From positions 1-64,000 of the IMG/VR virus record IMGVR_UViG_3300035169_000087: a stretch of DNA of 64,000 nt; one strand, written 5' to 3'. The first letter of the stretch is position 1. Each line of letters begins with the position of its first letter. The DNA comes from a virus. Below the pieces are notes generated by a model, which made no database searches, had not been told where the DNA came from, and was given only the letters and a program-made list of their open reading frames with translations. Of the stretch, positions 46,700-57,673 are shown piece after piece. The position numbers were made by a program, and so were the translations under genes.

Positions 46700-48299
46700 T
46701 CAAGGCAGTAGTCCTTCGCGTTGCATGGCCTGCTCAAGTTGCCGGCGGATCCCCGGGTCCAGGTCGGGCGGCAGCTCCCCGTACAACAGGACATGCCCGG
46801 CGACGCGGCTGATCTCGTCGGCGACGAGCCGTTGTACCGGGTTGAGTTTCGCCCGTTCCCGTTCGACCGCCGTACTCACGGCCGCGAACACACCCGGCTC
46901 AGTCATGCGCTTTCCCGGTGAGTAGTTCCCGTGCCCTGGCGATCAGCGCGCCGCCAGCGTCGTTGGGGTGTGCGGCGAGCCACCGGTCGAGTAGCGCGAC
47001 CGCTCCCGGCCTGGTGCTGCGTACGTCGCTGGTTTCGCCGCTGTGCGTCTCGATGGAGGTGTCGCGTACGAGCGTGAGCCGGTCGTCCGGGGCCATGGGT
47101 AGGCGCAGCGTGACCTCGACCGTGGGTTTCGGCAGCGCCTCGATCCGGGTGGGCAGCGACATGCCGGGCGTGTGATCAACGGGTAGTCCGCGCTGAATCG
47201 AGCAGCCGACCAGTTCCCCGAACAGGTCCGATTCCTGCCCGTCCACGGTCAGCAGGCCACGGCCGCCGACCAGAGACACCACGAAGTCAGGCACCGGTTG
47301 CCTCCCGGATCGCGGTGTACGTGCCACACGGCCACGCGACGGGCACCGTGTCATCCAGGTCGCTCTCGCAGCACTCCGAGCACACGACCCGCGTATCGCC
47401 CTCTACCGGCAGGTGAACGCCCAGCGCGGCCAGCGCGGCGGTATTGCCCTCCAGGGAGGCGCAGGTCGCGTTGTAGTCGGCGGCGGCTTCCTCGTAGGCT
47501 GCGGCGATCTCGCGGCGTCGTTGCGCCCGCTGCTGGCGCTGGTTGAGTTCGTGCGCGGACCGCTCGGCCGGGCTGAGGCCGACGCTCAGCGGGCCCGCGT
47601 ACTTCGCTTGGCGGGCGATCTCTGCGGCGAGGTTGCGTAGCGGCGCGGCCAGGTCGTACGCCTGGATGCCGGTCGGTACCGGCGTGGGCTCGGTCACGGC
47701 GCGTCCAGGACGTATCCGACGCGGATCACAGCCCAGCACTCGCGCTCGGACCACGCGGTGAGCAGTGCGTGCATGTCGGCCGAGCCGCGCCGGGTGGTGC
47801 GGTTTTCGCCGCCGACGTAGGCGCCGTGCTCGCCGAACCAGCGCACCGACACCGGGACGGTATCGGCAGCGCCGTGTTCAGCGACCGCTGCGGCCGTGGA
47901 CTCGTCCCATACGGCCTGGCATACGGTGCAGCGCCGGGCCAGCCACTCGGGCGGGTACGCGATCGGGCCGATGCCACCGTAGGGGCTGGCCGTGCGGCGC
48001 GTGTACTTGGTTTCCACGGCCTTCGACCCGCATTTGCGGCACGTCGCGTGCTCCCCGGAGTAGGGCGGTAGCGTGACGGGTTTCGGGATGCCGGGGGTCG
48101 CGCAGCAGTCGTTGATCTGTTCGTCGATGCCGTACGCCGGCATGTCGGCGGGCGCGTAGCCGGGTCTCTTGCAGCACACGGTTTTGCCGCGGTACGCGTA
48201 GCCGTCTGGTGCGGGTCCGTAGCGGTGGGTCCAGGTGCCGTCGCCGGTGCGTTCGAAGATGACCGGCTCAAGTGCGGCGTCAGGCGTTTCGTTCGGCAC
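46700..48299 (-). CDS. Four leftward hypothetical ORFs (46700-46906, 46899-47294, 47287-47697, 47694-48299)
   Basis: Overlapping stop/start coupling; CxxC and WPC.T motifs. Confidence 0.5.
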
Positions 48300-48384
48300 G
48301 CGCCTAGTGTGCCTCGCCGGGCGGTGTTTCGTTGCGCGGAATCCGGATCGACGCAACGGATCGTAGGTGGCGATCGTCAAACGA

Positions 48385-48414
48385 TTCGCCCGCGACACCC
48401 GGCAGCGCTACGGT
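48385..48414 (+). promoter_or_regulatory. Putative housekeeping-sigma promoter of the Y RNA-Ro60 unit
   Basis: TTCGCC-N18-TACGGT; the -10 ends 7 nt before the first RNA stem. Confidence 0.45.
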
Positions 48415-48421
48415 AGGGCTC

Positions 48422-48493
48422 GCCCCGGTGCGCACGGTACGGGTTACTTCTTTCATGCAGAAACAACACCCGCACCGGACCTGATCTCGGGGC
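48422..48493 (+). ncRNA. Y-RNA-like RNA 1 (short, no T or D arm)
   Basis: Terminal stem GCCCCG/CGGGGC, shared GGTGCG...GATCTC element, TACTTC motif, apical hairpin. Confidence 0.7.
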
Positions 48494-48520
48494 ACACAAC
48501 TGAACAATGACTGCGAACGC

Positions 48521-48655
48521 CCGTCAGGTGCGCAGGAGAGGGCTACTTCACTCTGTAAAAGTGGCAGTCCGGGTTCGAGTCCCGGCAGGCCCGTAACAGG
48601 GCCCGTAGTGTAACGGCAGCACGCTCGTCGCCTTCCCCGACTCGATCTCTGGCGG
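48521..48655 (+). ncRNA. Y-RNA-like RNA 2 with permuted tRNA domain retaining a GUA anticodon arm
   Basis: Stem CCGTCAG/CTGGCGG; TCACT-CTGTAAA-AGTGG; T arm CCGGG-TTCGAGT-CCCGG; looped acceptor stem; D arm TAGTGTAACGGCAGCAC. Confidence 0.8.
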
Positions 48656-48673
48656 CACTCGCAGTGGACAGCA

Positions 48674-48796
48674 CCTCCCGGTGCGTAGGCGACGCGTACT
48701 TCTCGCTAGGGATATCGGTTCGAATCCGAGAGCCGCTTCGGCGGCGACGGCGTGACGGTAACCGCCATTTCGCGTAGCCGCCCTGATCTCGGGAGG
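48674..48796 (+). ncRNA. Y-RNA-like RNA 3 (YrlA-like, degenerate tRNA domain)
   Basis: Stem CCTCCCG/CGGGAGG; T arm TCGG-TTCGAAT-CCGA; GCCGC-TTCG-GCGGC; GGCG-TGACGGTAAC-CGCC. Confidence 0.75.
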
Positions 48797-48808
48797 AGCA
48801 AGCATCGG

Positions 48809-48951
48809 GGTCGCGCCCGGTGCGACGGAGACGGGTCCTTCTTAGGGTTGCTGGTTCGAATCCAGTCGAGTCGCTTAGGCGGCTCGTAGCGCAATCTGGT
48901 AGCGCATAAGAGCAGTTCAATCCCGCCACCATTCCGATCTCGGGCGCGACC
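48809..48951 (+). ncRNA. Y-RNA-like RNA 4 (YrlA topology)
   Basis: 11-bp stem GGTCGCGCCCG/CGGGCGCGACC; T arm GCTGG-TTCGAAT-CCAGT; acceptor CGAGTCG/CGGCTCG closed by a loop; D arm TAGCGCAATCTGGTAGCGCA; TCTTA/TAAGA anticodon-stem equivalent. Confidence 0.85.
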
Positions 48952-48988
48952 ACCTTTCCCGCTCCTCCCCTTCCCGTGGGAGTCGAGC

Positions 48989-51841
48989 ATGGCCCGTTTC
49001 AACACCCCGACCGCGAAGCCCGCGGTCCACTCGCCGATCATGGGCGAGCGCACCGCGTCCGGGCGCACCTTCGAAGGCGGCGCAGGCTACGCGCGGGACG
49101 CCAAGTCGGAACTCTTCCTGCTCGCCGTCTCGAACTTCGTGTCCACCGACACGTTCTACGAGAAGGCCGACGACCGCGACGAGCGGTTCGAACGCCTCGT
49201 GCACCAGGTCGCGGTCGAGGACCCGGACTGGATGGGCCGGTTCATCCCGTGGCTGCGCAGCGAGGCCAACATGCGCACCGCGTCCCTCGTCGCGGCCGCC
49301 GAGTCCGTCAAGGCACGACTGGACGCCTACGACGCTTCTCTCGCCGGGAACGAGCAGCCTGCGGACGCGCTCAAGAAGCCGGTCAACCGCGCACTGATCA
49401 ACGCTGCGTGCCAGCGGCCCGACGAACCCGGTGAACTACTCGCCTACTGGACATCCCGCCACGGACGCGCCCTGCCCAAGCCCGTCAAGCGAGGCATCGC
49501 CGACGCCGTGCGACGCCTCTACAACGGCAAGTCGCTGATCAAATACGACACCGCGTCGCACGGCTACCGGTTCGGCGACGTCCTCAACCTCGTACACGCC
49601 GACCCCGAACCGGACAAGCCGTGGCAGGGCGAGCTTTTCAAGTACGCCCTGGACCGGCGCCACCACCCGGCTGAGGCGGTCGTACCGGAATCGAACCGCA
49701 CGCTCACCGCGAACAGTGCGCTGCTCGCGCTGCCCGTCGACCAGCGGCGCGCGTTCCTGCGCGGCCCCGACGCCGCGGCGCGCCTCACCGAGGCCGGGTT
49801 CACGTGGGAGATGCTGGCCGGGTGGCTGCAGGGCCCGATGGACGCCGAGGCGTGGGAGGCCGTGATCCCGTCGATGGGGTACATGGCGTGCCTCGCCGAG
49901 GGAACCCCGGTCTGGCTGGCCGATGGCACCACCGCACCGATCGAGGACGTGGTGGCCCGCAAGCTGCCAGTGCTCTCCTACGACAAAGCATGGGACAGCC
50001 GGCCGGTCAAATACGGTCCCAACCAGGGGCCACGTGACCAGTCGGTGGGCAACCTCGTGCCTACGATCCCGTCTGCGTGGCTCGACACCGGCGTGCGCCC
50101 CATTGCGGCCGTGCGGTTCGCCTCGGGCCGCGTCATTGAGGCCACCTACGATCACCGGTGGGTACGCCAACGTCGAAGCGGCCGCCAGGCGTGGGAATGG
50201 AACACGACTAGTGAGCTGCGGGTCGGCGACCGCATCCCGGTCCCTCTGACCGCCGATACGTTCGGCGATGAGGGAGACGCCTGGGATGGCTACTTTGTTG
50301 GGGGCATGCTCGGCGACGGTGGCATGACAGTGCTGACCCCGGAGTTTCATGGCGACCCGAACAACGGCGCTGTGGCGTTCATGCGCGAATACGCAGCCAA
50401 ACACGGCTGCGACGTTCGCGAGGACACGAACGGTGCGATCGTGCGCATGCGATTCCCGTTCAAACAGTGGAAGCGGAATCCGCTGGCGGAGATCCTTCGC
50501 CGGTACGAGGTCTGGGGAAAGCGTTGCGAGGCCAAAGCACTGCCCAACCGGCCCTTCAGCCGGGAGTTCTGGATCGGCGCGCTATCCGGTCTGATCGATA
50601 CTGACGGCTGCGTCCGGGAGCGCACCAACGCCAAGGGCACCCTGCACGGCTCGGTCGAGTATGCCACCGTGTCCCGACGGCTCGCCGAGCAAGTGTCCGA
50701 TGTGCTGCTGCGTCTCGGGGTAACCAACATCATCCGCGAGAGGGCGCCACTCAGCCGGCCCGACGCAGCCATCCAGAGCCGCCACACCCTCTTCGTCGTG
50801 GAAACGAACCGGGCGACGGCGCTGGTTCGTCTCGCCGAACTCCTCGACCTGCGGATCAGCTACAAAGCCGCGCGGCTCGCTAGCCTGGCGGAGCGCTTGG
50901 CGCATGTAGCTCCGGCTTCGAGCGAGATGCACGGATACGACAAGGCCGTGGCTCTGGATCGCGTGGTAGCGATCGAGGACGCCGGAGAGCGCGCGACATA
51001 TTGCGTCACGGTCGACGCCTCGAACTTGTTTGTGGCTAATGGCATTGTGACGGGCAATTGCCTGCGCAACCTGAGGAATTTCGACGAGACCGGCGTCCCG
51101 GACGATGTCGCCGAGCAGGTCATCGCGAAGCTCAAGGATCCGGCCGAGGTCGCCCGCTCGCGACAGTTGCCGTTCCGGTTCCTCTCGGCGTACCGGGCGG
51201 CTCCGTCGCTGCGCTGGTCGTATCCGCTGGAGGTCGCGATCGGCCGCTCCCTGGGCAACGTGCCGGCGCTGTCGGGCCGCACGCTGATCCTCGTGGACAC
51301 CTCGGGTTCGATGAACGCGGGGTTCAGTAAGGACGGGACGCTGATGCGGTGGGACGCTGCGGCGCTGTTCGGGATCGCACTGGGGCATCGTTGCGCTGCG
51401 GCGGACGTGGTGTCGTTCTCCTCGCTTCAGTACTACTACGGGCAGCCGGGTGGCGCGAACGTGAAGGCGTTCCCGCTGAGCAAGGGCGAGTCGGTGCTGC
51501 GGTCGCTGGAGCGGTGGCGTGGCGGCGGCTGGTTCCTGGGCGGGGGTACGGAGACTGCGGCGGCGTTGCGGGCGACGTTCCAGGGCCATGACCGTGTGGT
51601 GGTGTTGACGGACGAGCAGGCGGCGCATGACGGGGTGGAGGTGACGCGGAGCGTGCCGGAGTCGGTGCCGATGTACACGTGGAACCTGGCGGGTTACGCG
51701 CGGGGGCATGCGCCGTCGGGTGGGCGGAATCGGCATGCGTTTGGGGGGCTGACGGATCAGGCGTTCAAGATGATTCCGTTGCTTGAGGGCGGCCGGGACG
51801 GTTCCTGGCCGTGGGATGCGGAGACGGTGCCCGCGCGGTAG
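48989..51841 (+). CDS. Ro60/Rsr TROVE plus vWA RNA-binding protein with intein (950-aa precursor, ~560 aa spliced)
   Basis: TFEGGAGY.RD.KSELFLL, WLR.EANMRT, QRPDEPGE.LAYW, PKPVKRG.AD, MGYMA|CLRNLRNF, SRQLPFRFLSAY, MIDAS LVDTSGSM, LTDEQ. Confidence 0.92.
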   Translation: MARFNTPTAKPAVHSPIMGERTASGRTFEGGAGYARDAKSELFLLAVSNFVSTDTFYEKADDRDERFERLVHQVAVEDPDWMGRFIPWLRSEANMRTASLVAAAESVKARLDAYDASLAGNEQPADALKKPVNRALINAACQRPDEPGELLAYWTSRHGRALPKPVKRGIADAVRRLYNGKSLIKYDTASHGYRFGDVLNLVHADPEPDKPWQGELFKYALDRRHHPAEAVVPESNRTLTANSALLALPVDQRRAFLRGPDAAARLTEAGFTWEMLAGWLQGPMDAEAWEAVIPSMGYMACLAEGTPVWLADGTTAPIEDVVARKLPVLSYDKAWDSRPVKYGPNQGPRDQSVGNLVPTIPSAWLDTGVRPIAAVRFASGRVIEATYDHRWVRQRRSGRQAWEWNTTSELRVGDRIPVPLTADTFGDEGDAWDGYFVGGMLGDGGMTVLTPEFHGDPNNGAVAFMREYAAKHGCDVREDTNGAIVRMRFPFKQWKRNPLAEILRRYEVWGKRCEAKALPNRPFSREFWIGALSGLIDTDGCVRERTNAKGTLHGSVEYATVSRRLAEQVSDVLLRLGVTNIIRERAPLSRPDAAIQSRHTLFVVETNRATALVRLAELLDLRISYKAARLASLAERLAHVAPASSEMHGYDKAVALDRVVAIEDAGERATYCVTVDASNLFVANGIVTGNCLRNLRNFDETGVPDDVAEQVIAKLKDPAEVARSRQLPFRFLSAYRAAPSLRWSYPLEVAIGRSLGNVPALSGRTLILVDTSGSMNAGFSKDGTLMRWDAAALFGIALGHRCAAADVVSFSSLQYYYGQPGGANVKAFPLSKGESVLRSLERWRGGGWFLGGGTETAAALRATFQGHDRVVVLTDEQAAHDGVEVTRSVPESVPMYTWNLAGYARGHAPSGGRNRHAFGGLTDQAFKMIPLLEGGRDGSWPWDAETVPAR
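49889..51058 (+). mobile_element. Intein (390 aa) with LAGLIDADG homing endonuclease
   Basis: Block A CLAEGT.V.LADG, block B ATYDHRW, GGMLGDG and SGLIDTDG, block F TYCVTV...NLFVANGIV, terminal TGN followed by Cys+1. Confidence 0.92.
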
Positions 51842-51848
51842 AACCAGT

Positions 51849-51881
51849 GGCCCCGTGCTCGACGGAACCAGGCGCGGGGCC
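51849..51881. terminator. Stem-loop between the Ro60 gene and the convergent leftward operon
   Basis: GGCCCCGTGC...GCGCGGGGCC. Confidence 0.6.
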
Positions 51882-53264
51882 TACGGGCAGTCGCAGTGCC
51901 CGCAGTGGTGGTGCACGCTCGGCGGGGGCGGTGTCACCTGCTGCGTGGTGAGGACCGGCGGCCGGACGGTGCCGCGCGGGGACTTCTGCCCGAGGCCGGG
52001 CCGGGTGAGCACGTCCGGAAGCGGGCCCATAGCGGACACGGGCACGTTAGCCGCCATGTATCTGCGTCGCTGCTTGCCTTGCGCCTGCCGGAGTTCGGCC
52101 CTGTGGCGGGCGGTGTTCTCGACGATCCCGAGTTCCAGTTCCAGGGCGCGGATGCGGGCCCAGGTGCGCCGATACCTGCGGTATCGGATCAGGCGCACCA
52201 GTAGACGCGCTAGCCAGGTCACAGCACCCACTTCTCGTCCCAGCCTTGGCGTCCCGCGTACGGGGCGGCGAGCAGGCGCGCTGTGAGGCACGGCGCCCAC
52301 AGGTCACCGTTGAAGTCCGGGTCGCTCTGGCGGTCCTGGCAGAAGTAGCGCCGTGTCCCGTCGTCGAGTTCCGCGTAGGAGGTCATGTGCAGGCCCAGGA
52401 TCGCCCGCTTCGTCTCGACCTCAGCGAGCACGTGGGCCGGATCCCAGCGCGCGATGTGGACGCCGACAGTCTCGTCAATGTCCTCGATCCCGGTTGCGAC
52501 TACACCGCCGGACGCCCCCACCGAACCGCGAAAGAGGGTCCACTGCGGATCTGGTGTGCCGTCCGTGGTGCCCGCAGCCAGCGCGGACTGCATCGCGATC
52601 TGCTCGTCTCCGGCGAGGCATTTCTCGAGGAACGCGGTGATCGCGGCAACGTCAGTCACGCTCGACCTCCACGCCGAGTTCCTTCGCGATGGCGCGCACC
52701 GTCGGGCACGGGTAGTCGCGCGCCAAGAACTCGTCCGTTCCGTCGCTGCATTCGTCGCAGATCGGCTTGCCCTCCAATGTGCCCTCCACGGCGATACGCG
52801 GCTTGTGCAATTCGAGGACCGCGTGCAGGCTCCCGGCTATCACGGACGCCCAGCGCGCGAACTCGGCGAGCTTGCCGTCACCGATCATGTTCGCGCGGGA
52901 GCGCCACCCGATGGTCGCGCCCATGAACCGCTGGACCTCGGCGCGCAACGCTTCCACATCCAGGTCAGGCATTCGTCTCCAGTCCGAGCTGTTTCGCGAT
53001 GGCCTCGACGGTCTCGCAGGGGTAACCGGTCGGGTTGCAGATCTCTGGCCCGATGTCCATGCAGACGGAGCAGTCCTTGACGTGCGGCTTGCTCCCGATG
53101 CCTGCCCAGCGGGGCTTGTGCAGGTCGAGGGCGGCGGTCAGCGCGCCGCGCATCTTGATCGCCTCCGAGTGCCCCTCGACGGGGCAGTCGTCGCGCCACC
53201 GGCCGCAGATGTCATCGAGCCAGCCGTCCAGCCGCTCCCGGATCGCCGCGTCGAGGTCAGTCAC
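51881..53264 (-). CDS. Four leftward ORFs (51881-52222; 52219-52659 DUF6221-like; 52652-52972; 52965-53264)
   Basis: HIARWDP..VLAEVE.KR.IL..H...PC.T.RLLA.PY in the second; LH.P...CxxC...YPC.TV.AIA in the last two. Confidence 0.6.
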
Positions 53265-54874: not shown

Positions 54875-55321
54875 TCAGTGCAGGACCCTCGGCCGCAGCA
54901 CGAGCAGGTCGCCGGTACGCACCCCTAGTTCGGCGGTGAGGGCGAGATCGTCGAGTTCGACGCCGCTATCGGTGAACAGGCCGAGTTGCGCTTCGCAGCG
55001 AGTGGTGTCGGCGTCGGGCTGGTGTGCGTGGATGGCGGCGCGTAGTAGTTCGATGGTTTTCGTGCCGCCGGTGAGCGGTAGTTGCTTGTCGGTGCCGTTC
55101 CAGGTGACGGTCACGGTTCCGGGTTCCATCCGGCCAGTATCCCGCGCCGGGTCAGTCTCCGTCCGGGTGCGCGTCTTGCCGTCGAAAGCACGTAGCGCGC
55201 GGGTCAGCCGTTCCAGGTCGGTCGGGATCTCGAACGGTCTGGGTGGCGGCATCGGGTAGTCGATGTAGGCGGGGAGCACCATCACGGGCTCGCCGGCCTC
55301 GGCCTGAGTTGACTCGGTCAC
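54875..55321 (-). CDS. Protein with C-terminal ubiquitin-like (beta-grasp) domain lacking the terminal GG; alternative start at 55129
   Basis: VTVTWNG.DK...LLRAAI.AH...LGLFTDSGVELDD....ELGVRTGDLLVLRPRVLH-stop. Confidence 0.6.
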   Translation of the reverse strand: MTESTQAEAGEPVMVLPAYIDYPMPPPRPFEIPTDLERLTRALRAFDGKTRTRTETDPARDTGRMEPGTVTVTWNGTDKQLPLTGGTKTIELLRAAIHAHQPDADTTRCEAQLGLFTDSGVELDDLALTAELGVRTGDLLVLRPRVLH

Positions 55322-57673
55322 TGGTCGTTCCATTCGGTGGTGTCACGTGCTGCGGCGTCTTTGAGCATGTCGGCGAGCAGGTCCGCCTGGTTCTCGTCGA
55401 GCAGCAGGTCGGCCACGGTCTCATCGTCGCGGTTGAGGGGAACGAGGATGCGGCCCTGGTTCCAGGTGACGGATTCACCCCACGCGTAGCGCGGAAGGCC
55501 CAGCGGGTCCACGACGATCGACGCCCCGGTCATGTCGTCCGGTGTCGGGGTGCGTATGTCGTGCACGGCCCGCGCCATGGCCTCGTGGCAGCGGGTGCAG
55601 TCGGCTGCCGGGCCGTCGTGAAGGGTGATCAGGTGCAGGGCTTCGGTGATGGTGTAGCGGGCGATCATCTCGTCGGGTGCGCCTGCGCGCCGCTCGGCGA
55701 TGATGCGCCGGATGATGCGCTGCGGACCGGTCAGTGCGACGGGCACGGTCACCGCGCTTTCCTTCGTGCGTGCCAGCGGCTCAGGCGCAGTGCGAGACGC
55801 CCGCGCCAGGTCGTGGAGAGGTGGGCGTCGAGTTCCGCTTGCAGCCGGTCGACCCTCAGTCCTGTGCTAGCAGCGCGCAGTTCGGGGAGTGACGGGCCGA
55901 GCGCGAAGTTGGCTGCGAGGTTCGCCATTGCCTCGGCTGCGGTGGGCGTGACGGCGCGGTGTAGGGCGGCAAGGTCCGGCAGGTCGTCGGTCACGTCTCC
56001 TCCTGCGCTGATTGTGCCGCGCCCGGCCCGTTGTCGGCGGCCCGCCAGTCGATGCCCGCGTCGTACTCCCAGCCCGAGTCGCCCCACGACTTCGACGACC
56101 AGAACCAGCCCTCGTACTGGCCGGGTACGGTCGGCCAGTTGACGGTGTCGCCGTCGTCGAAGGGGCAGCGCTGACCGTATTTGAGGGCGTCGCAGGCCGG
56201 AGTGTGGGTGAGGGTGTAGCGCGGTTCGTCGCGCACGCTCGTGAATGCGGGGTCGGCGTTGGCGGCCCAGGTGGCGGGGTGATGGACGGGCACGAGTTCC
56301 ACGGTGAGGCGGTGGGGTTCCTCTTCGCCGTCGGTCGGCGCGGTGGTTCGTAGCGAGTCGTATGCGTTGAGGATGCCTGCGAGTCCGCGCAGGCTCGTGC
56401 CGCCGGGCTTGTCGTGTAGGACGACCAGTTCGGGCGGCAGCGTCTCCCACGTCCACGGCCCGATCGTGCTGCCGTCAGTGGCCGGTGCGGCCCGCGTCTC
56501 GGGGGTCACGGCGCGATCCCCCGGTCCCACGTGTACAGCGGCTCGCCGTCCCCGTCCTCGCTCTCGTACTCGGTCACGAACGCGTCGTAGCCCTCGCCGG
56601 CCAGGATCCGTACCGTCTGGTCAATGACCCACGCCTTGTGGTGGTCGCCGTCGGTCTGGCCGTCGCCCGCGAGTAGTTCCAGGGCGAGTTGCACGCGCTC
56701 CGTGTCGGTCTCGGCCTGCTGGCGTTCGAACACGCCCCATACGCGCTTGCCGCCGCTGTGTGCGTCGTCGAGCAGCCAGCCGCGGTTGTCGTCGTCGCGG
56801 TGCGGCACGGGAAGCCAGTGGGCTTCCTCGTCGCTCGCGGGCCCCGTCTGGACGGCTCGCGCGATGGCGGACTGCTTCGTGGCGAACCCGTAGGTGACCT
56901 CGGCGCAGGCGTCGGGGTGGTCCCAGTGGTACAGGTCGAACACGGTCCTCATGCTGGCACTCCGAGCTGGGCGTCGTGGTTGTCGGCGGGGTGCGTTCTG
57001 TGCTACCACCAGGAGTCGAGCACGTCCCCGTTGTATGTCGCCGCCTCGTAGTATCCGATCTCGCCGCAGTACTCGGACAGGCACGCGAGCGCCCGGTGCA
57101 CTTGGCACTGGTGCAGGGGCTCACCGGTGGCGCGCTCGGGGTCGGTGTGGGCGAGGACGAAGCGTTCCCGGTCCGTCCAGGCGAGGTGCCCGGTGATGGT
57201 TAGTTCGCGTTGGCGGGCTTTGACGGTGTCGATCGACGGGCAGCCGTCTGCGGTGTCGGTCACGGCGCGGTCCTCTCGCTCTCGGCGGTGTCGAGGGCGT
57301 CGTCGGTGCGCCACCGATGCGAACAGCGTCCGCACGTGCGGTGGAAGTGCCCGGTGTCGCGGTTCTCCGGCGCGATCGAGCCCCAGTCGCCGGAGCAGTA
57401 TTCGATCGCGACGTCGGGGCTGCCGCACTTGCGGCACGGCAGGTCGGGCACCTGGGGCGGCGGGTTGCCGGTCCACGGGTCCTCGTTGAGCGCGGCGGTG
57501 AGTTGTGTGCTGGCGTCGGTGAATGCGGCTTGGGCGAACTTCACGCGCTGTGCGTCGTCGGGCCCGTAGGTGGTGGGTGCGTAGGTGGCCCAGTGTTCGG
57601 CGAGTGCGCGGGCGCGGGTGAGGTGGGCTTCGGCGGTTAGGGCGCGGCGGCGCCAGTCCTCGGTGTCGGTCAT
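55318..57673 (-). CDS. Six leftward hypothetical ORFs (55318-55752, 55749-55994, 55991-56509, 56506-56952, 57003-57263, 57260-57673)
   Basis: GTGA coupling; DGDHHKAWVIDQ..R.L...WD.GIAP motif in 56506-56952. Confidence 0.55.

What the first reader, a model, noticed from the sequence alone, without database searches (positions are those of the whole stretch)
48385..51881. Phage-encoded Ro60 unit preceded by a tandem array of four different Y-RNA-like tRNA mimics
Seen: four consecutive fold-back units (48422-48493, 48521-48655, 48674-48796, 48809-48951) share one scaffold. Each has a GC-rich terminal stem whose sequence differs between units but stays paired, an invariant GGTGCG facing an invariant GATCTC, a second stem, and T(A/C)CTTC. 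Their apical parts differ. A candidate promoter precedes unit 1, the TROVE-vWA gene starts 37 bp after unit 4, and a hairpin follows the gene. The block runs opposite to its neighbours, like an autonomous cassette. Known: Ro60/Rsr binds Y RNA stems; bacterial YrlA RNAs mimic tRNA; Salmonella has rsr-yrlBA-rtcBA; mycobacteriophage Giles encodes Ro plus a Y RNA. Inference: four diversified Y RNAs with no RtcB/RtcA in the window suggest a modular RNP in which one protein carries interchangeable RNA adaptors, for example decoys for host tRNA-targeting defence nucleases or tethers to different RNases. I do not recall such an array being described, but could not check.
Basis: partly seen in the sequence, partly recalled or inferred. 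Interest (0 to 1): 0.95.

Follow-up and report, generated by a model that had tools for sequence, protein, structure and literature searches.

The report
Phage Ro60 with four Y RNAs
An uncultured soil actinophage carries a self-contained Ro60 (Rsr) gene, split by a homing intein and preceded by four small structured Y RNAs (one short hairpin, three tRNA look-alikes); the array is real, but 1-6 such RNAs beside this gene are usual in actinobacteria and their phages, so it is a new member of a known kind.

Summary
Four fold-back units at 48422-48951 share one scaffold: a terminal stem that covaries, GGUGCG facing GAUCUC, a second stem, and U(A/C)CUUC. They lie 37 nt upstream of a TROVE-vWA (Ro60/Rsr) gene. 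The cassette has a conserved -10 box and a terminal hairpin, and minus-strand genes flank it.

Units 2-4 carry T arm, acceptor-like hairpin and D arm, as YrlA does. Unit 1 is a short hairpin, as YrlB is.

A covariance model built from the four units finds 204 same-strand units beside 78 of 80 viral Ro genes (1-6 per locus). It finds 193 beside 80 actinobacterial Ro genes, with long-short-long recurring in Streptomyces. Across these, 94% of pair cells are paired and 30 of 33 pairs show compensatory change.

So the array is a general, mostly unannotated trait, not a singular invention. Published precedents have two Y RNAs (M. smegmatis, Salmonella, phage phiLo) or up to five small RNAs (Deinococcus). 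This scan's earlier AI notes also report Ro60 RNA arrays on other DNA.

Ro60 is split by a 390-aa LAGLIDADG intein. The hairpin before the T arm looks like an anticodon arm (CU-NNN-AA loop) with a variable triplet. The decoy idea is untested.

The parts
48409..48414 (+). -10-like promoter box TACGGT (TANNNT), about 7 nt before unit 1
   Evidence: T, A and T are invariant in six orthologous arrays while the flanks vary. Not found by the sigma-70 consensus scan. Its function is inferred.
48422..48493 (+). Y RNA unit 1: short hairpin (72 nt), YrlB-like, with no T or D arm
   Evidence: 57.8 bits with model R1. RNAalifold on five orthologs predicts the same scaffold, with 7 compensatory pairs. Fold z = -2.4.
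48521..48655 (+). Y RNA unit 2: YrlA-like. Anticodon-arm look-alike 48548-48564 (loop CUGUAAA), T arm 48569-48585, acceptor-like hairpin 48586-48605, D arm 48608-48622
   Evidence: 129.3 bits with R1. Rfam YrlA partial match 20.9 bits and Rfam tRNA 20.3 bits. RNAalifold on five orthologs gives 43 pairs, 20 with compensatory change, including the V hairpin.
48674..48796 (+). Y RNA unit 3: YrlA-like variant. T arm 48715-48729, UUCG-capped hairpin 48732-48745, D-like arm 48749-48766. Terminal stem CCUCCC/GGGAGG is invariant in relatives
   Evidence: 118.1 bits with R1. Orthologs are aligned. A contig of a related sequence in soil run X7 has 178 other letters in place of 48640-48776, which spans most of this unit.
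48809..48951 (+). Y RNA unit 4: YrlA-like. T arm 48851-48865, 8-bp acceptor-like hairpin 48867-48886, D arm 48889-48905
   Evidence: Rfam YrlA 39.7 bits, E = 3.8e-7, over model positions 1-114. 123.6 bits with R1. Fold z = -2.7.
48978..48982 (+). Ribosome-binding site GGGAG, 6 nt before the ATG
   Evidence: GGGAGT(C/T)GAGCATG is conserved in four of the six aligned arrays and degenerate in the other two.
48989..49888 (+). Ro60/Rsr N-extein (aa 1-300), the first part of the TROVE ring
   Evidence: About 47-53% identical overall to annotated phage Ro-like proteins. Matches phage phiLo Ro60 (PDB 9KOP) residues 20-198, E = 2.9e-9.
49889..51058 (+). Intein, 390 aa, with a LAGLIDADG homing endonuclease. 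It starts with Cys, ends in Gly-Asn, and is followed by Cys
   Evidence: Pfam LAGLIDADG_3 (E = 3.6e-11) and Intein_splicing. Matches the M. tuberculosis RecA intein PI-MtuI. It sits exactly between the conserved PSMGYMA and LRNLRNF motifs and is absent from six relatives. Its GC3 is 0.79 against 0.88-0.91 in the exteins.
51059..51841 (+). Ro60/Rsr C-extein: end of TROVE plus the vWA domain with MIDAS motif DTSGS, and the stop codon
   Evidence: Pfam TROVE and VWA_2. Matches phiLo Ro60 residues 250-488, E = 1.7e-8.
51849..51881 (+). GC-rich hairpin after the stop codon, a candidate terminator without a U tract
   Evidence: Stem of 11-12 pairs, -35.6 kcal/mol for the 70-nt stretch, z = -2.6. A convergent minus-strand ORF begins at 51881.

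Best explanation
This is a phage-borne rsr (Ro60) locus of the actinobacterial type. One promoter drives a polycistronic transcript that holds four Y RNAs and then the Ro60 mRNA.

Shown here:
- The four RNAs share a covarying scaffold found only next to Ro genes.
- Three of them carry a tRNA-like module (T arm, acceptor-like hairpin, D arm).
- The gene encodes a collinear TROVE-vWA protein interrupted by a homing intein.

Inferred from published systems:
- Host RNases cut the precursor into discrete 70-145 nt RNAs, as in M. smegmatis and D. radiodurans.
- After protein splicing, the ring-shaped Ro60 binds each RNA on the conserved helix GGUGCG / GAUCUC. That helix resembles the GGUCCGA site contacted by frog Ro60.
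- The variable outer module of each RNA tethers Ro60 to a different host partner. Polynucleotide phosphorylase is the documented one (the RYPER complex, also assembled in vitro with phage phiLo Ro60). tRNA-binding enzymes are the suspected ones for the tRNA-like modules.
- The likely net effect during infection is to redirect host decay of structured RNA.

I am highly confident of the identity (Y RNAs plus Ro60). The tether-to-nuclease step is by analogy only.
For: - Scaffold and motifs are present in all four units.
- Rfam YrlA matches unit 4 over the full model, E = 3.8e-7.
- Model R1 hits only these four places in the 99 kb contig.
- R1 gives 204 hits beside viral Ro genes, all on the Ro strand and mostly within 600 nt upstream. 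It gives 193 beside bacterial Ro genes.
- In three whole 9-11 Mb genomes, 8 of 11 hits cluster at the searched rsr loci. Two lie elsewhere at full length and one is a partial match.
- 94.3% of pair cells are paired, against 70.2% in shuffles and at most 54.5% when the partners are slid. 30 of 33 pairs show changes on both sides.
- RNAalifold on MAFFT alignments of orthologs predicts the same structure independently.
- GGUGCG, UACUUC and GAUCUC are 88-100% conserved in both the viral and the bacterial sets.
- Both exteins match solved phage Ro60 (9KOP/9L5Y) collinearly.
- Precedents: YrlA and YrlB are processed from one precursor and bound by Rsr in M. smegmatis (PMC4201824). Yrn2-tRNA-Yrn1 form a precursor in D. 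radiodurans. phiLo Ro60 binds two upstream Yrl RNAs and forms a complex with host PNPase (PMC12135203).
Against: - No expression data exist for this uncultured phage, so discrete RNAs, Ro60 binding and partners are untested.
- The Rfam YrlA score (39.7 bits) is below the curated threshold of 69.
- The published 5' motif GNCGAA(N)G is not met literally. The units read CGCA, CGCA, CGUA and CGAC.
- The alignment used for pair counts was fitted to my own model, which favours the structure.
- The hairpin after the gene has no U tract.
- Whether the intein, with its non-canonical Gly-Asn end, splices is unknown.
Confidence: 0.78

Rival explanations
1. The tRNA-like units are Ro60-tethered decoys or baits for enzymes that read the anticodon arm, such as host anticodon nucleases, tRNA-targeting toxins or modification enzymes. 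The hairpin before the T arm would be a working anticodon-arm mimic whose triplet changes quickly.
For: - With no constraint on loop sequence, 58 of 101 distinct long viral units have a hairpin of at least 4 bp with a 7-nt loop ending 3-6 nt before the T stem. Shuffles give a mean of 11.6 and a maximum of 19.
- The loop reads C (90%), U (91%), NNN, A (79%), A (95%), with 30 different loops.
- The same is seen in 34 of 77 bacterial units.
- In orthologous unit 2 the stem covaries while the triplet changes: GUA, GCU, GUU, GCU, CAA. A loose end of a related contig in soil run X7 reads CUU at the same position.
- The contig has no tRNA genes of its own.
Against: - In this window only unit 2 has such an arm. 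Units 3 and 4 have short 4-nt-loop hairpins there.
- Two loops (CUGCUAA, CUGUUAA) make up 26 of 58, so the diversity is partly phylogenetic.
- A relic of a tRNA-dimer origin (10.1101/312249) would also leave an anticodon arm, though it would not explain why the arm is maintained.
- No anticodon nuclease or tRNA-targeting gene was identified nearby.
- No experiment links Y RNAs to such enzymes.
Confidence: 0.15
2. The four units are not separate RNAs but a structured 5' leader through which Ro60 regulates its own mRNA. Excess protein would bind the repeated sites and control translation or stability.
For: - The units are on the same strand with no terminator between them.
- Unit 4 ends 37 nt before the ATG, with a conserved ribosome-binding site.
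- In most loci the last unit ends about 35-40 nt before the start codon.
Against: - In phage Atuin three units lie downstream of the Ro gene, among the tRNA genes.
- In several contigs units lie more than 1 kb from the gene (L033, L048, L058, L072).
- In M. smegmatis and D. radiodurans the homologous RNAs accumulate as discrete, Rsr-bound species.
- Autoregulation could coexist with the main explanation.
Confidence: 0.05
3. The units are decayed or rearranged tRNA genes (pseudo-tRNAs) left from a phage tRNA array, with no link to Ro60.
For: - Related cultured phages embed the Ro gene in tRNA arrays.
- GenBank annotates a tRNA-Arg inside a unit in GiJojo and in VanLee.
- The T and D arms are tRNA-like.
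Against: - ARAGORN and Rfam tRNA find no tRNA in the window or contig.
- The arm order is permuted and the acceptor-like stem is a closed hairpin.
- The non-tRNA scaffold (terminal stem, GGUGCG/GAUCUC, stem 2) covaries and is conserved across about 400 units found beside Ro genes; in three whole genomes 8 of 11 hits lay at the rsr locus.
- Unit 1 has no tRNA part at all.
Confidence: 0.02

Closest known systems
Mycobacterium smegmatis rsr locus with YrlA and YrlB (Chen et al. 2014, PMC4201824)
   Same: Actinobacterial-type locus. Several Y RNAs lie upstream of rsr on the same strand and are processed from one precursor. One long RNA has T arm, acceptor-like stem and D arm, and one is a short hairpin RNA. 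The locus is not linked to rtcBA.
   Different: Four RNAs instead of two, three of them tRNA-like. The short RNA comes first rather than last. The locus is on a phage, and Ro60 is split by an intein. I could not retrieve the M. smegmatis sequences to test direct homology.
Thermus phage phiLo Ro60 with Yrl1 and Yrl2 (PMC12135203; PDB 9KOP, 9L5Y)
   Same: A phage-encoded Ro60 with Y RNA-like genes directly upstream. Both exteins match this protein collinearly. Binding and a PNPase complex were shown there in vitro.
   Different: phiLo has two RNAs defined by a CGAA motif, and the paper's text never uses 'tRNA-like' or 'YrlA'. Here there are four RNAs with GGUGCG(N)A, three of them tRNA-like. Protein similarity is distant (E about 1e-9).
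Deinococcus radiodurans Rsr with Yrn1, Yrn2 and small RNAs a, b, d (RYPER complex)
   Same: A cluster of up to five small RNAs upstream of rsr. There is a polycistronic precursor, and T-arm-like elements occur in several of the RNAs. It is the mechanistic model: Y RNA tethers Ro60 to PNPase.
   Different: The arms are ordered differently and a tRNA gene lies inside the cluster. The binding helix is closer to the animal type. It is bacterial and stress-induced.
Salmonella Typhimurium rsr-yrlBA-rtcBA and Rfam family YrlA (RF02553)
   Same: YrlA architecture (T arm, acceptor-like hairpin, D arm, conserved UA before the variable region) plus a second short Y RNA.
   Different: No RtcB, RtcA or RtcR on the contig. 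Rfam scores stay below the family threshold (39.7 against 69 bits).
Mycobacterial RecA intein PI-MtuI and other actinobacterial LAGLIDADG inteins
   Same: Splicing-domain similarity (E = 8e-8), LAGLIDADG endonuclease core, insertion in a highly conserved host-protein motif.
   Different: The host protein is Ro60. I found no report of a Ro60/TROVE intein in the searchable literature. The penultimate residue is Gly instead of His.

Membership tests
Y RNA (Ro60-associated noncoding RNA) | Encoded next to a Ro60/TROVE ortholog on the same strand | tested here: met
   The units end 37 nt before the Ro60 ATG. In about 160 related loci all hits are on the Ro strand.
Y RNA (Ro60-associated noncoding RNA) | A long stem formed by the 5' and 3' ends, followed by an internal loop or bulged helix | tested here: met
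   Terminal stems of 6-11 bp, then G-C with a bulged U and a 2-bp mini-helix, in all four units. This helix is 98.6% paired and covaries across 139 distinct units.
Y RNA (Ro60-associated noncoding RNA) | Conserved 5'-strand Ro60-binding motif: GNCGAA(N)G in bacteria, GGUCCGA in animals (PMC4201824) | tested here: inconclusive
   The literal GNCGAA/CGAA is absent (the units read CGCA, CGCA, CGUA, CGAC). GGUGCG(N)A is 95-100% conserved in the family and differs from GGUCCGA at one position in unit 4. Relatives read GGUGCGAAG.
Y RNA (Ro60-associated noncoding RNA) | Physically bound and stabilised by Ro60 | not testable with these tools
   Needs co-immunoprecipitation or a gel-shift assay.
YrlA (Rfam RF02553) | tRNA-like module in the order T arm, closed acceptor-like hairpin, UA, D arm | tested here: met
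   Units 2, 3 and 4 have GGUUCGA(A/G)UCC T loops, hairpins of 5-8 bp, and D arms with GG in the loop. Unit 1 lacks the module.
YrlA (Rfam RF02553) | Score at or above the curated gathering threshold (69 bits) | tested here: not met
   The best is 39.7 bits (unit 4, E = 3.8e-7), then 20.9 bits (unit 2). Relatives reach at most 47 bits. These form a divergent actinobacterial-type subgroup.
Ro60 / Rsr (TROVE + vWA) | TROVE HEAT-repeat ring followed by a vWA domain with a MIDAS motif | tested here: met
   Pfam TROVE and VWA_2. DTSGS motif. Both exteins are collinear with solved phage Ro60 and 47-56% identical to annotated phage Ro-like proteins.
Intein with homing endonuclease | Cys/Ser at position 1, TxxH block B, two LAGLIDADG motifs, terminal Asn followed by Cys/Ser/Thr, inserted in a conserved host motif | tested here: met
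   The sequence shows Cys1, TYDH, two LAGLIDADG-type motifs, and Asn followed by Cys. The penultimate His is replaced by Gly. Splicing itself was not tested.
rsr-yrlBA-rtcBA RNA repair operon | RtcB ligase and RtcA cyclase adjacent to rsr | tested here: not met
   No RtcB match in the 99 kb contig. The neighbours are small genes of unknown function.
tRNA gene | Cloverleaf with an open acceptor stem, detected by ARAGORN or Rfam tRNA | tested here: not met
   No tRNA in the window or contig. The best partial Rfam tRNA score is 20.3 bits against a threshold of 29.

The most novel reading that the evidence does not exclude
In actinobacterial-type Y RNAs, the hairpin that the literature calls the 'variable arm' may be a maintained anticodon stem-loop mimic. 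It has a 5-bp stem and a 7-nt CU-NNN-AA loop, followed by a 4-5-nt variable loop and the T arm. Its triplet turns over between orthologs. If so, Ro60 would display complete, permuted tRNA look-alikes, and phage arrays of up to six would act as a panel of decoys or baits for anticodon-reading enzymes such as defence nucleases.
Probability: 0.15. Interest if true: 0.8.

Novelty: new member of a known kind. Interest (0 to 1): 0.4.

Why it matters
Ro60-Y RNA particles are well known, but their function in bacteria and phages is only partly understood. This locus adds three useful points.

1. Multi-RNA arrays (1-6 units) are usual beside Ro genes of actinobacteria and actinophages. They are unannotated in the four cultured-phage records I looked at. 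At least two 'tRNA-Arg' calls (GiJojo, VanLee) fall inside such units.

2. Many units keep an anticodon-arm look-alike that published models treat as a variable arm. This gives a concrete, testable handle on what the tRNA-like module recognises.

3. Ro60 can host a mobile intein.

None of this changes the class of the system. The practical value is a covariance model and a list of culturable phages (BRock, VanLee, GiJojo, Atuin) in which the RNAs can be studied.

Tried and rejected
- Rfam at gathering thresholds found nothing in the window. Only the E-value mode showed YrlA.
- ARAGORN found no tRNA or tmRNA.
- blastn of the array against 50,697 phage records found no match.
- The sigma-70 consensus scan found no promoter. 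The promoter call rests on conservation only.
- The hexamer pair GGTGCG...GATCTC is not significant on its own.
- PHROGs and Pfam on ten neighbouring ORFs gave only DUF6221 and unknown-function families. No nuclease, ligase, PNPase or ubiquitin-like hit appeared. I therefore drop any link between the cassette and the nearby putative ubiquitin-like ORF.
- Sequencing runs: no RNA holder is listed, so nothing can be said about expression.
- Two reviews (PMC10870794, PMC6542706) and the supplementary tables of PMC4201824 are not held. I could not see how many YrlAs per phage were already tabulated.
- I could not reach the M. smegmatis genome by name to test model R1 on the experimentally validated YrlA and YrlB.
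- My first hairpin finder, which took the longest stem, undercounted 7-nt loops. It was replaced by a loop-size scan with shuffles.

Full report
**Source.** The window is the first 64 kb of a 99,071-bp IMG/VR viral contig (estimated 76% complete). Soil metagenomes hold it. Its GC content and its closest protein relatives point to an actinobacterial host.

**Observation.** Reading 48200-52100 confirms four consecutive units at the stated coordinates. Each has a terminal stem, GGTGCG, a second stem, T(A/C)CTTC, a variable apical part, and GATCTC before the closing strand.

- The terminal stems differ in sequence but pair. Two column pairs show three and two different Watson-Crick types among only four units.
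- The hexamers are common in this GC-rich DNA (70 and 32 copies), and chance pairs at the right spacing occur. The evidence is therefore the whole scaffold.
- Covariance model R1, built from the four units, scores them at 58-129 bits. The next best window hit is 8.6 bits, and nothing else in the contig matches.
- The ORF 48989-51841 starts 37 nt after unit 4. A strong hairpin (51849-51881) follows it.
- Neighbouring ORFs on both sides are on the minus strand, with GC3 of 0.78-0.84.

**What the units are.**
- Rfam YrlA aligns to unit 4 over its whole length (39.7 bits, E = 3.8e-7) and to the T/acceptor/D core of unit 2. Both are below the curated 69 bits.
- Units 2-4 have the YrlA order: T arm (GGUUCGA(A/G)UCC), closed acceptor-like hairpin, UA, D arm.
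- Unit 1 is a 72-nt hairpin without these arms. It resembles the short second Y RNA (YrlB, Yrn2) that Chen et al. describe in every species examined (PMC4201824).

**The protein.** It is a Ro60/Rsr.
- Pfam finds TROVE and vWA.
- It aligns over its full length with annotated phage Ro-like proteins.
- Both exteins match the solved Thermus phage phiLo Ro60 collinearly.

**Comparative evidence.**
- The Ro protein recovers relatives in cultured Streptomyces, Gordonia and Arthrobacter phages, in 80 IMG/VR contigs, and in 80 actinobacterial genome loci, mostly Streptomyces.
- On the viral loci R1 gives 204 hits at E <= 0.01. All are on the Ro strand and nearly all lie in the 600 nt before the start codon. 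Of 78 loci with hits, 10 have one unit, 36 two, 17 three, 8 four, 3 five and 4 six.
- On the bacterial loci R1 gives 193 hits. A long-short-long trio recurs in many Streptomyces loci.
- In three whole 9-11 Mb genomes, 8 of 11 hits cluster at the searched rsr loci. Two lie elsewhere at full length and one is a partial match.
- In an even sample of 151 genomes of the class, 16 have hits, in clusters of up to four.
- By eye, BRock and VanLee each have four units, and L002 has five. In Atuin, R1 finds three units downstream of the gene.
- The window's closest relatives (L008, L009, L010, L012) have the same short-long-long-long array, unit by unit.

**Structure support.**
- On 139 distinct units, 94.3% of pair cells are standard pairs, against 70.2% in shuffles and at most 54.5% when partners are slid.
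- 30 of 33 pairs change on both sides. The covariation score is 0.48 against 0.13 in shuffles.
- That alignment was fitted to my model. I therefore also ran RNAalifold on plain MAFFT alignments of orthologs of units 2 and 1. It predicted the same helices, with 20 and 7 compensatory pairs.
- GGUGCG, UACUUC and GAUCUC are 88-100% conserved in both the viral and the bacterial sets. They are therefore family signatures and the probable Ro60 site. GGUGCGA differs by one base from the frog/human GGUCCGA. The literal published GNCGAA motif is not met in this window.

**Expression signals.** The consensus scan found no promoter. In the six-way alignment, however, the T, A and T of TACGGT (48409-48414) are invariant amid variable sequence, 7 nt before unit 1. 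The GGGAG ribosome site is conserved in most of those arrays. Co-transcription and processing are inferred from M. smegmatis and D. radiodurans. No RNA data exist for this phage.

**The intein.**
- Residues 301-690 are an intein with a LAGLIDADG endonuclease. It is inserted exactly between PSMGYMA and LRNLRNF.
- None of the 80 viral Ro loci has a match length that would include it.
- Three bacterial genomes (Lentzea, Glycomyces, Microbispora) carry it at the same site. In the Lentzea and Glycomyces sequences that I aligned, the intein is clearly more conserved than the exteins, as expected for homing.
- In other soil runs, contigs 85-99% identical to the window leave 49912-51027 without cover, apart from a trace in one bin in X5. 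Their joints start at or a few bases before 49888, the last extein base. I read these as intein-free alleles.

**Anticodon-like hairpin.**
- The hairpin between UACUUC and the T arm is called V (variable arm) in PMC4201824. YrlA is said to lack an anticodon loop in 10.1101/312249.
- With no constraint on loop sequence, 58 of 101 distinct long viral units have a stem of at least 4 bp with a 7-nt loop ending 3-6 nt before the T stem. Shuffles give a mean of 11.6 and a maximum of 19.
- The loop reads C, U, NNN, A, A at 79-95%. 34 of 77 bacterial units show the same.
- In orthologs of unit 2 the stem covaries while the triplet changes.
- This fits the tRNA-dimer origin model cited in 10.1101/312249. 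The maintained stem and loop frame suggest a function. In this window only unit 2 has such an arm.

**Verdict.**
- The reading as a Ro60/Y RNA cassette is supported.
- The claim of an unprecedented array is not. It is one member of a widespread and variable family, with published precedents of two to five RNAs. Earlier AI notes of this scan also report similar Ro60 RNA arrays in other phages. I used those notes as leads only.
- Function is inferred by analogy: Ro60 gated by and tethered through Y RNAs to host PNPase or tRNA-binding factors.

Noticed in passing
window 49889-51058: A 390-aa LAGLIDADG intein splits Ro60 between PSMGYMA and LRNLRNF and ends in Gly-Asn rather than His-Asn. Its GC3 is lower than that of the exteins. 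Contigs of related sequences in three other soil runs show intein-free joints starting at or just before 49888. I found no paper on a Ro60/TROVE intein.
   Followed up: yes
L092 2501-5254, L093 1158-3890, L094 2501-5272: Ro genes of a Lentzea, a Glycomyces (MAG) and a Microbispora genome carry the same intein at the same site. In the Lentzea and Glycomyces sequences that I aligned, the intein is more conserved than the exteins (a homing pattern).
   Followed up: partly
window 48548-48564; alignments A4, A6: The 'V' hairpin of many YrlA-like units looks like an anticodon arm: a stem mostly of 5 bp, a 7-nt CU-NNN-AA loop, and usually 4-5 nt before the T stem. It is present in 58 of 101 viral and 34 of 77 bacterial long units. 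The triplet varies between orthologs.
   Followed up: yes
L004 2269-2343 (GiJojo), L006 2204-2275 (VanLee): The GenBank features 'tRNA-Arg(cct)' and 'tRNA-Arg(tct)' lie inside units found by model R1. Rfam's tRNA model does not hit them. They are probably Y RNA modules called as tRNAs.
   Followed up: partly
window 48672-48680 and 48791-48796; A4, A6: One recurrent class of units (unit 3 here) has the terminal stem ACCUCCC / GGGAGG. It is invariant in six relatives and occurs in 30 of 139 viral and 51 of 146 bacterial units. The 5' strand equals the anti-Shine-Dalgarno core of 16S rRNA (from my own knowledge) and the 3' strand is Shine-Dalgarno-like. This may be coincidence in GC-rich stems.
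   Followed up: no
window 48639-48777 (soil run X7): A contig of a related sequence replaces 48640-48776, which spans most of unit 3, with 178 other letters while keeping the flanking sequence. This suggests that single units can be swapped.
   Followed up: no
L007 4396-4834 (Arthrobacter phage Atuin): Three contiguous units lie downstream of the Ro gene, between tRNA-Thr and tRNA-Phe. The array therefore need not be a 5' leader.
   Followed up: no
L005 4579-4742 (Streptomyces phage BRock): Rfam manA RNA matches at 49.7 bits, just under its 55.2-bit threshold. The match lies between tRNA genes, 500 nt downstream of the Ro gene.
   Followed up: no
window 52219-52659 (-): The nearest downstream gene with any family hit is a DUF6221 protein (E = 1e-19). 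The other nine neighbours tested have no Pfam family. One of them is the 54875-55333 ORF that another note calls ubiquitin-like.
   Followed up: partly
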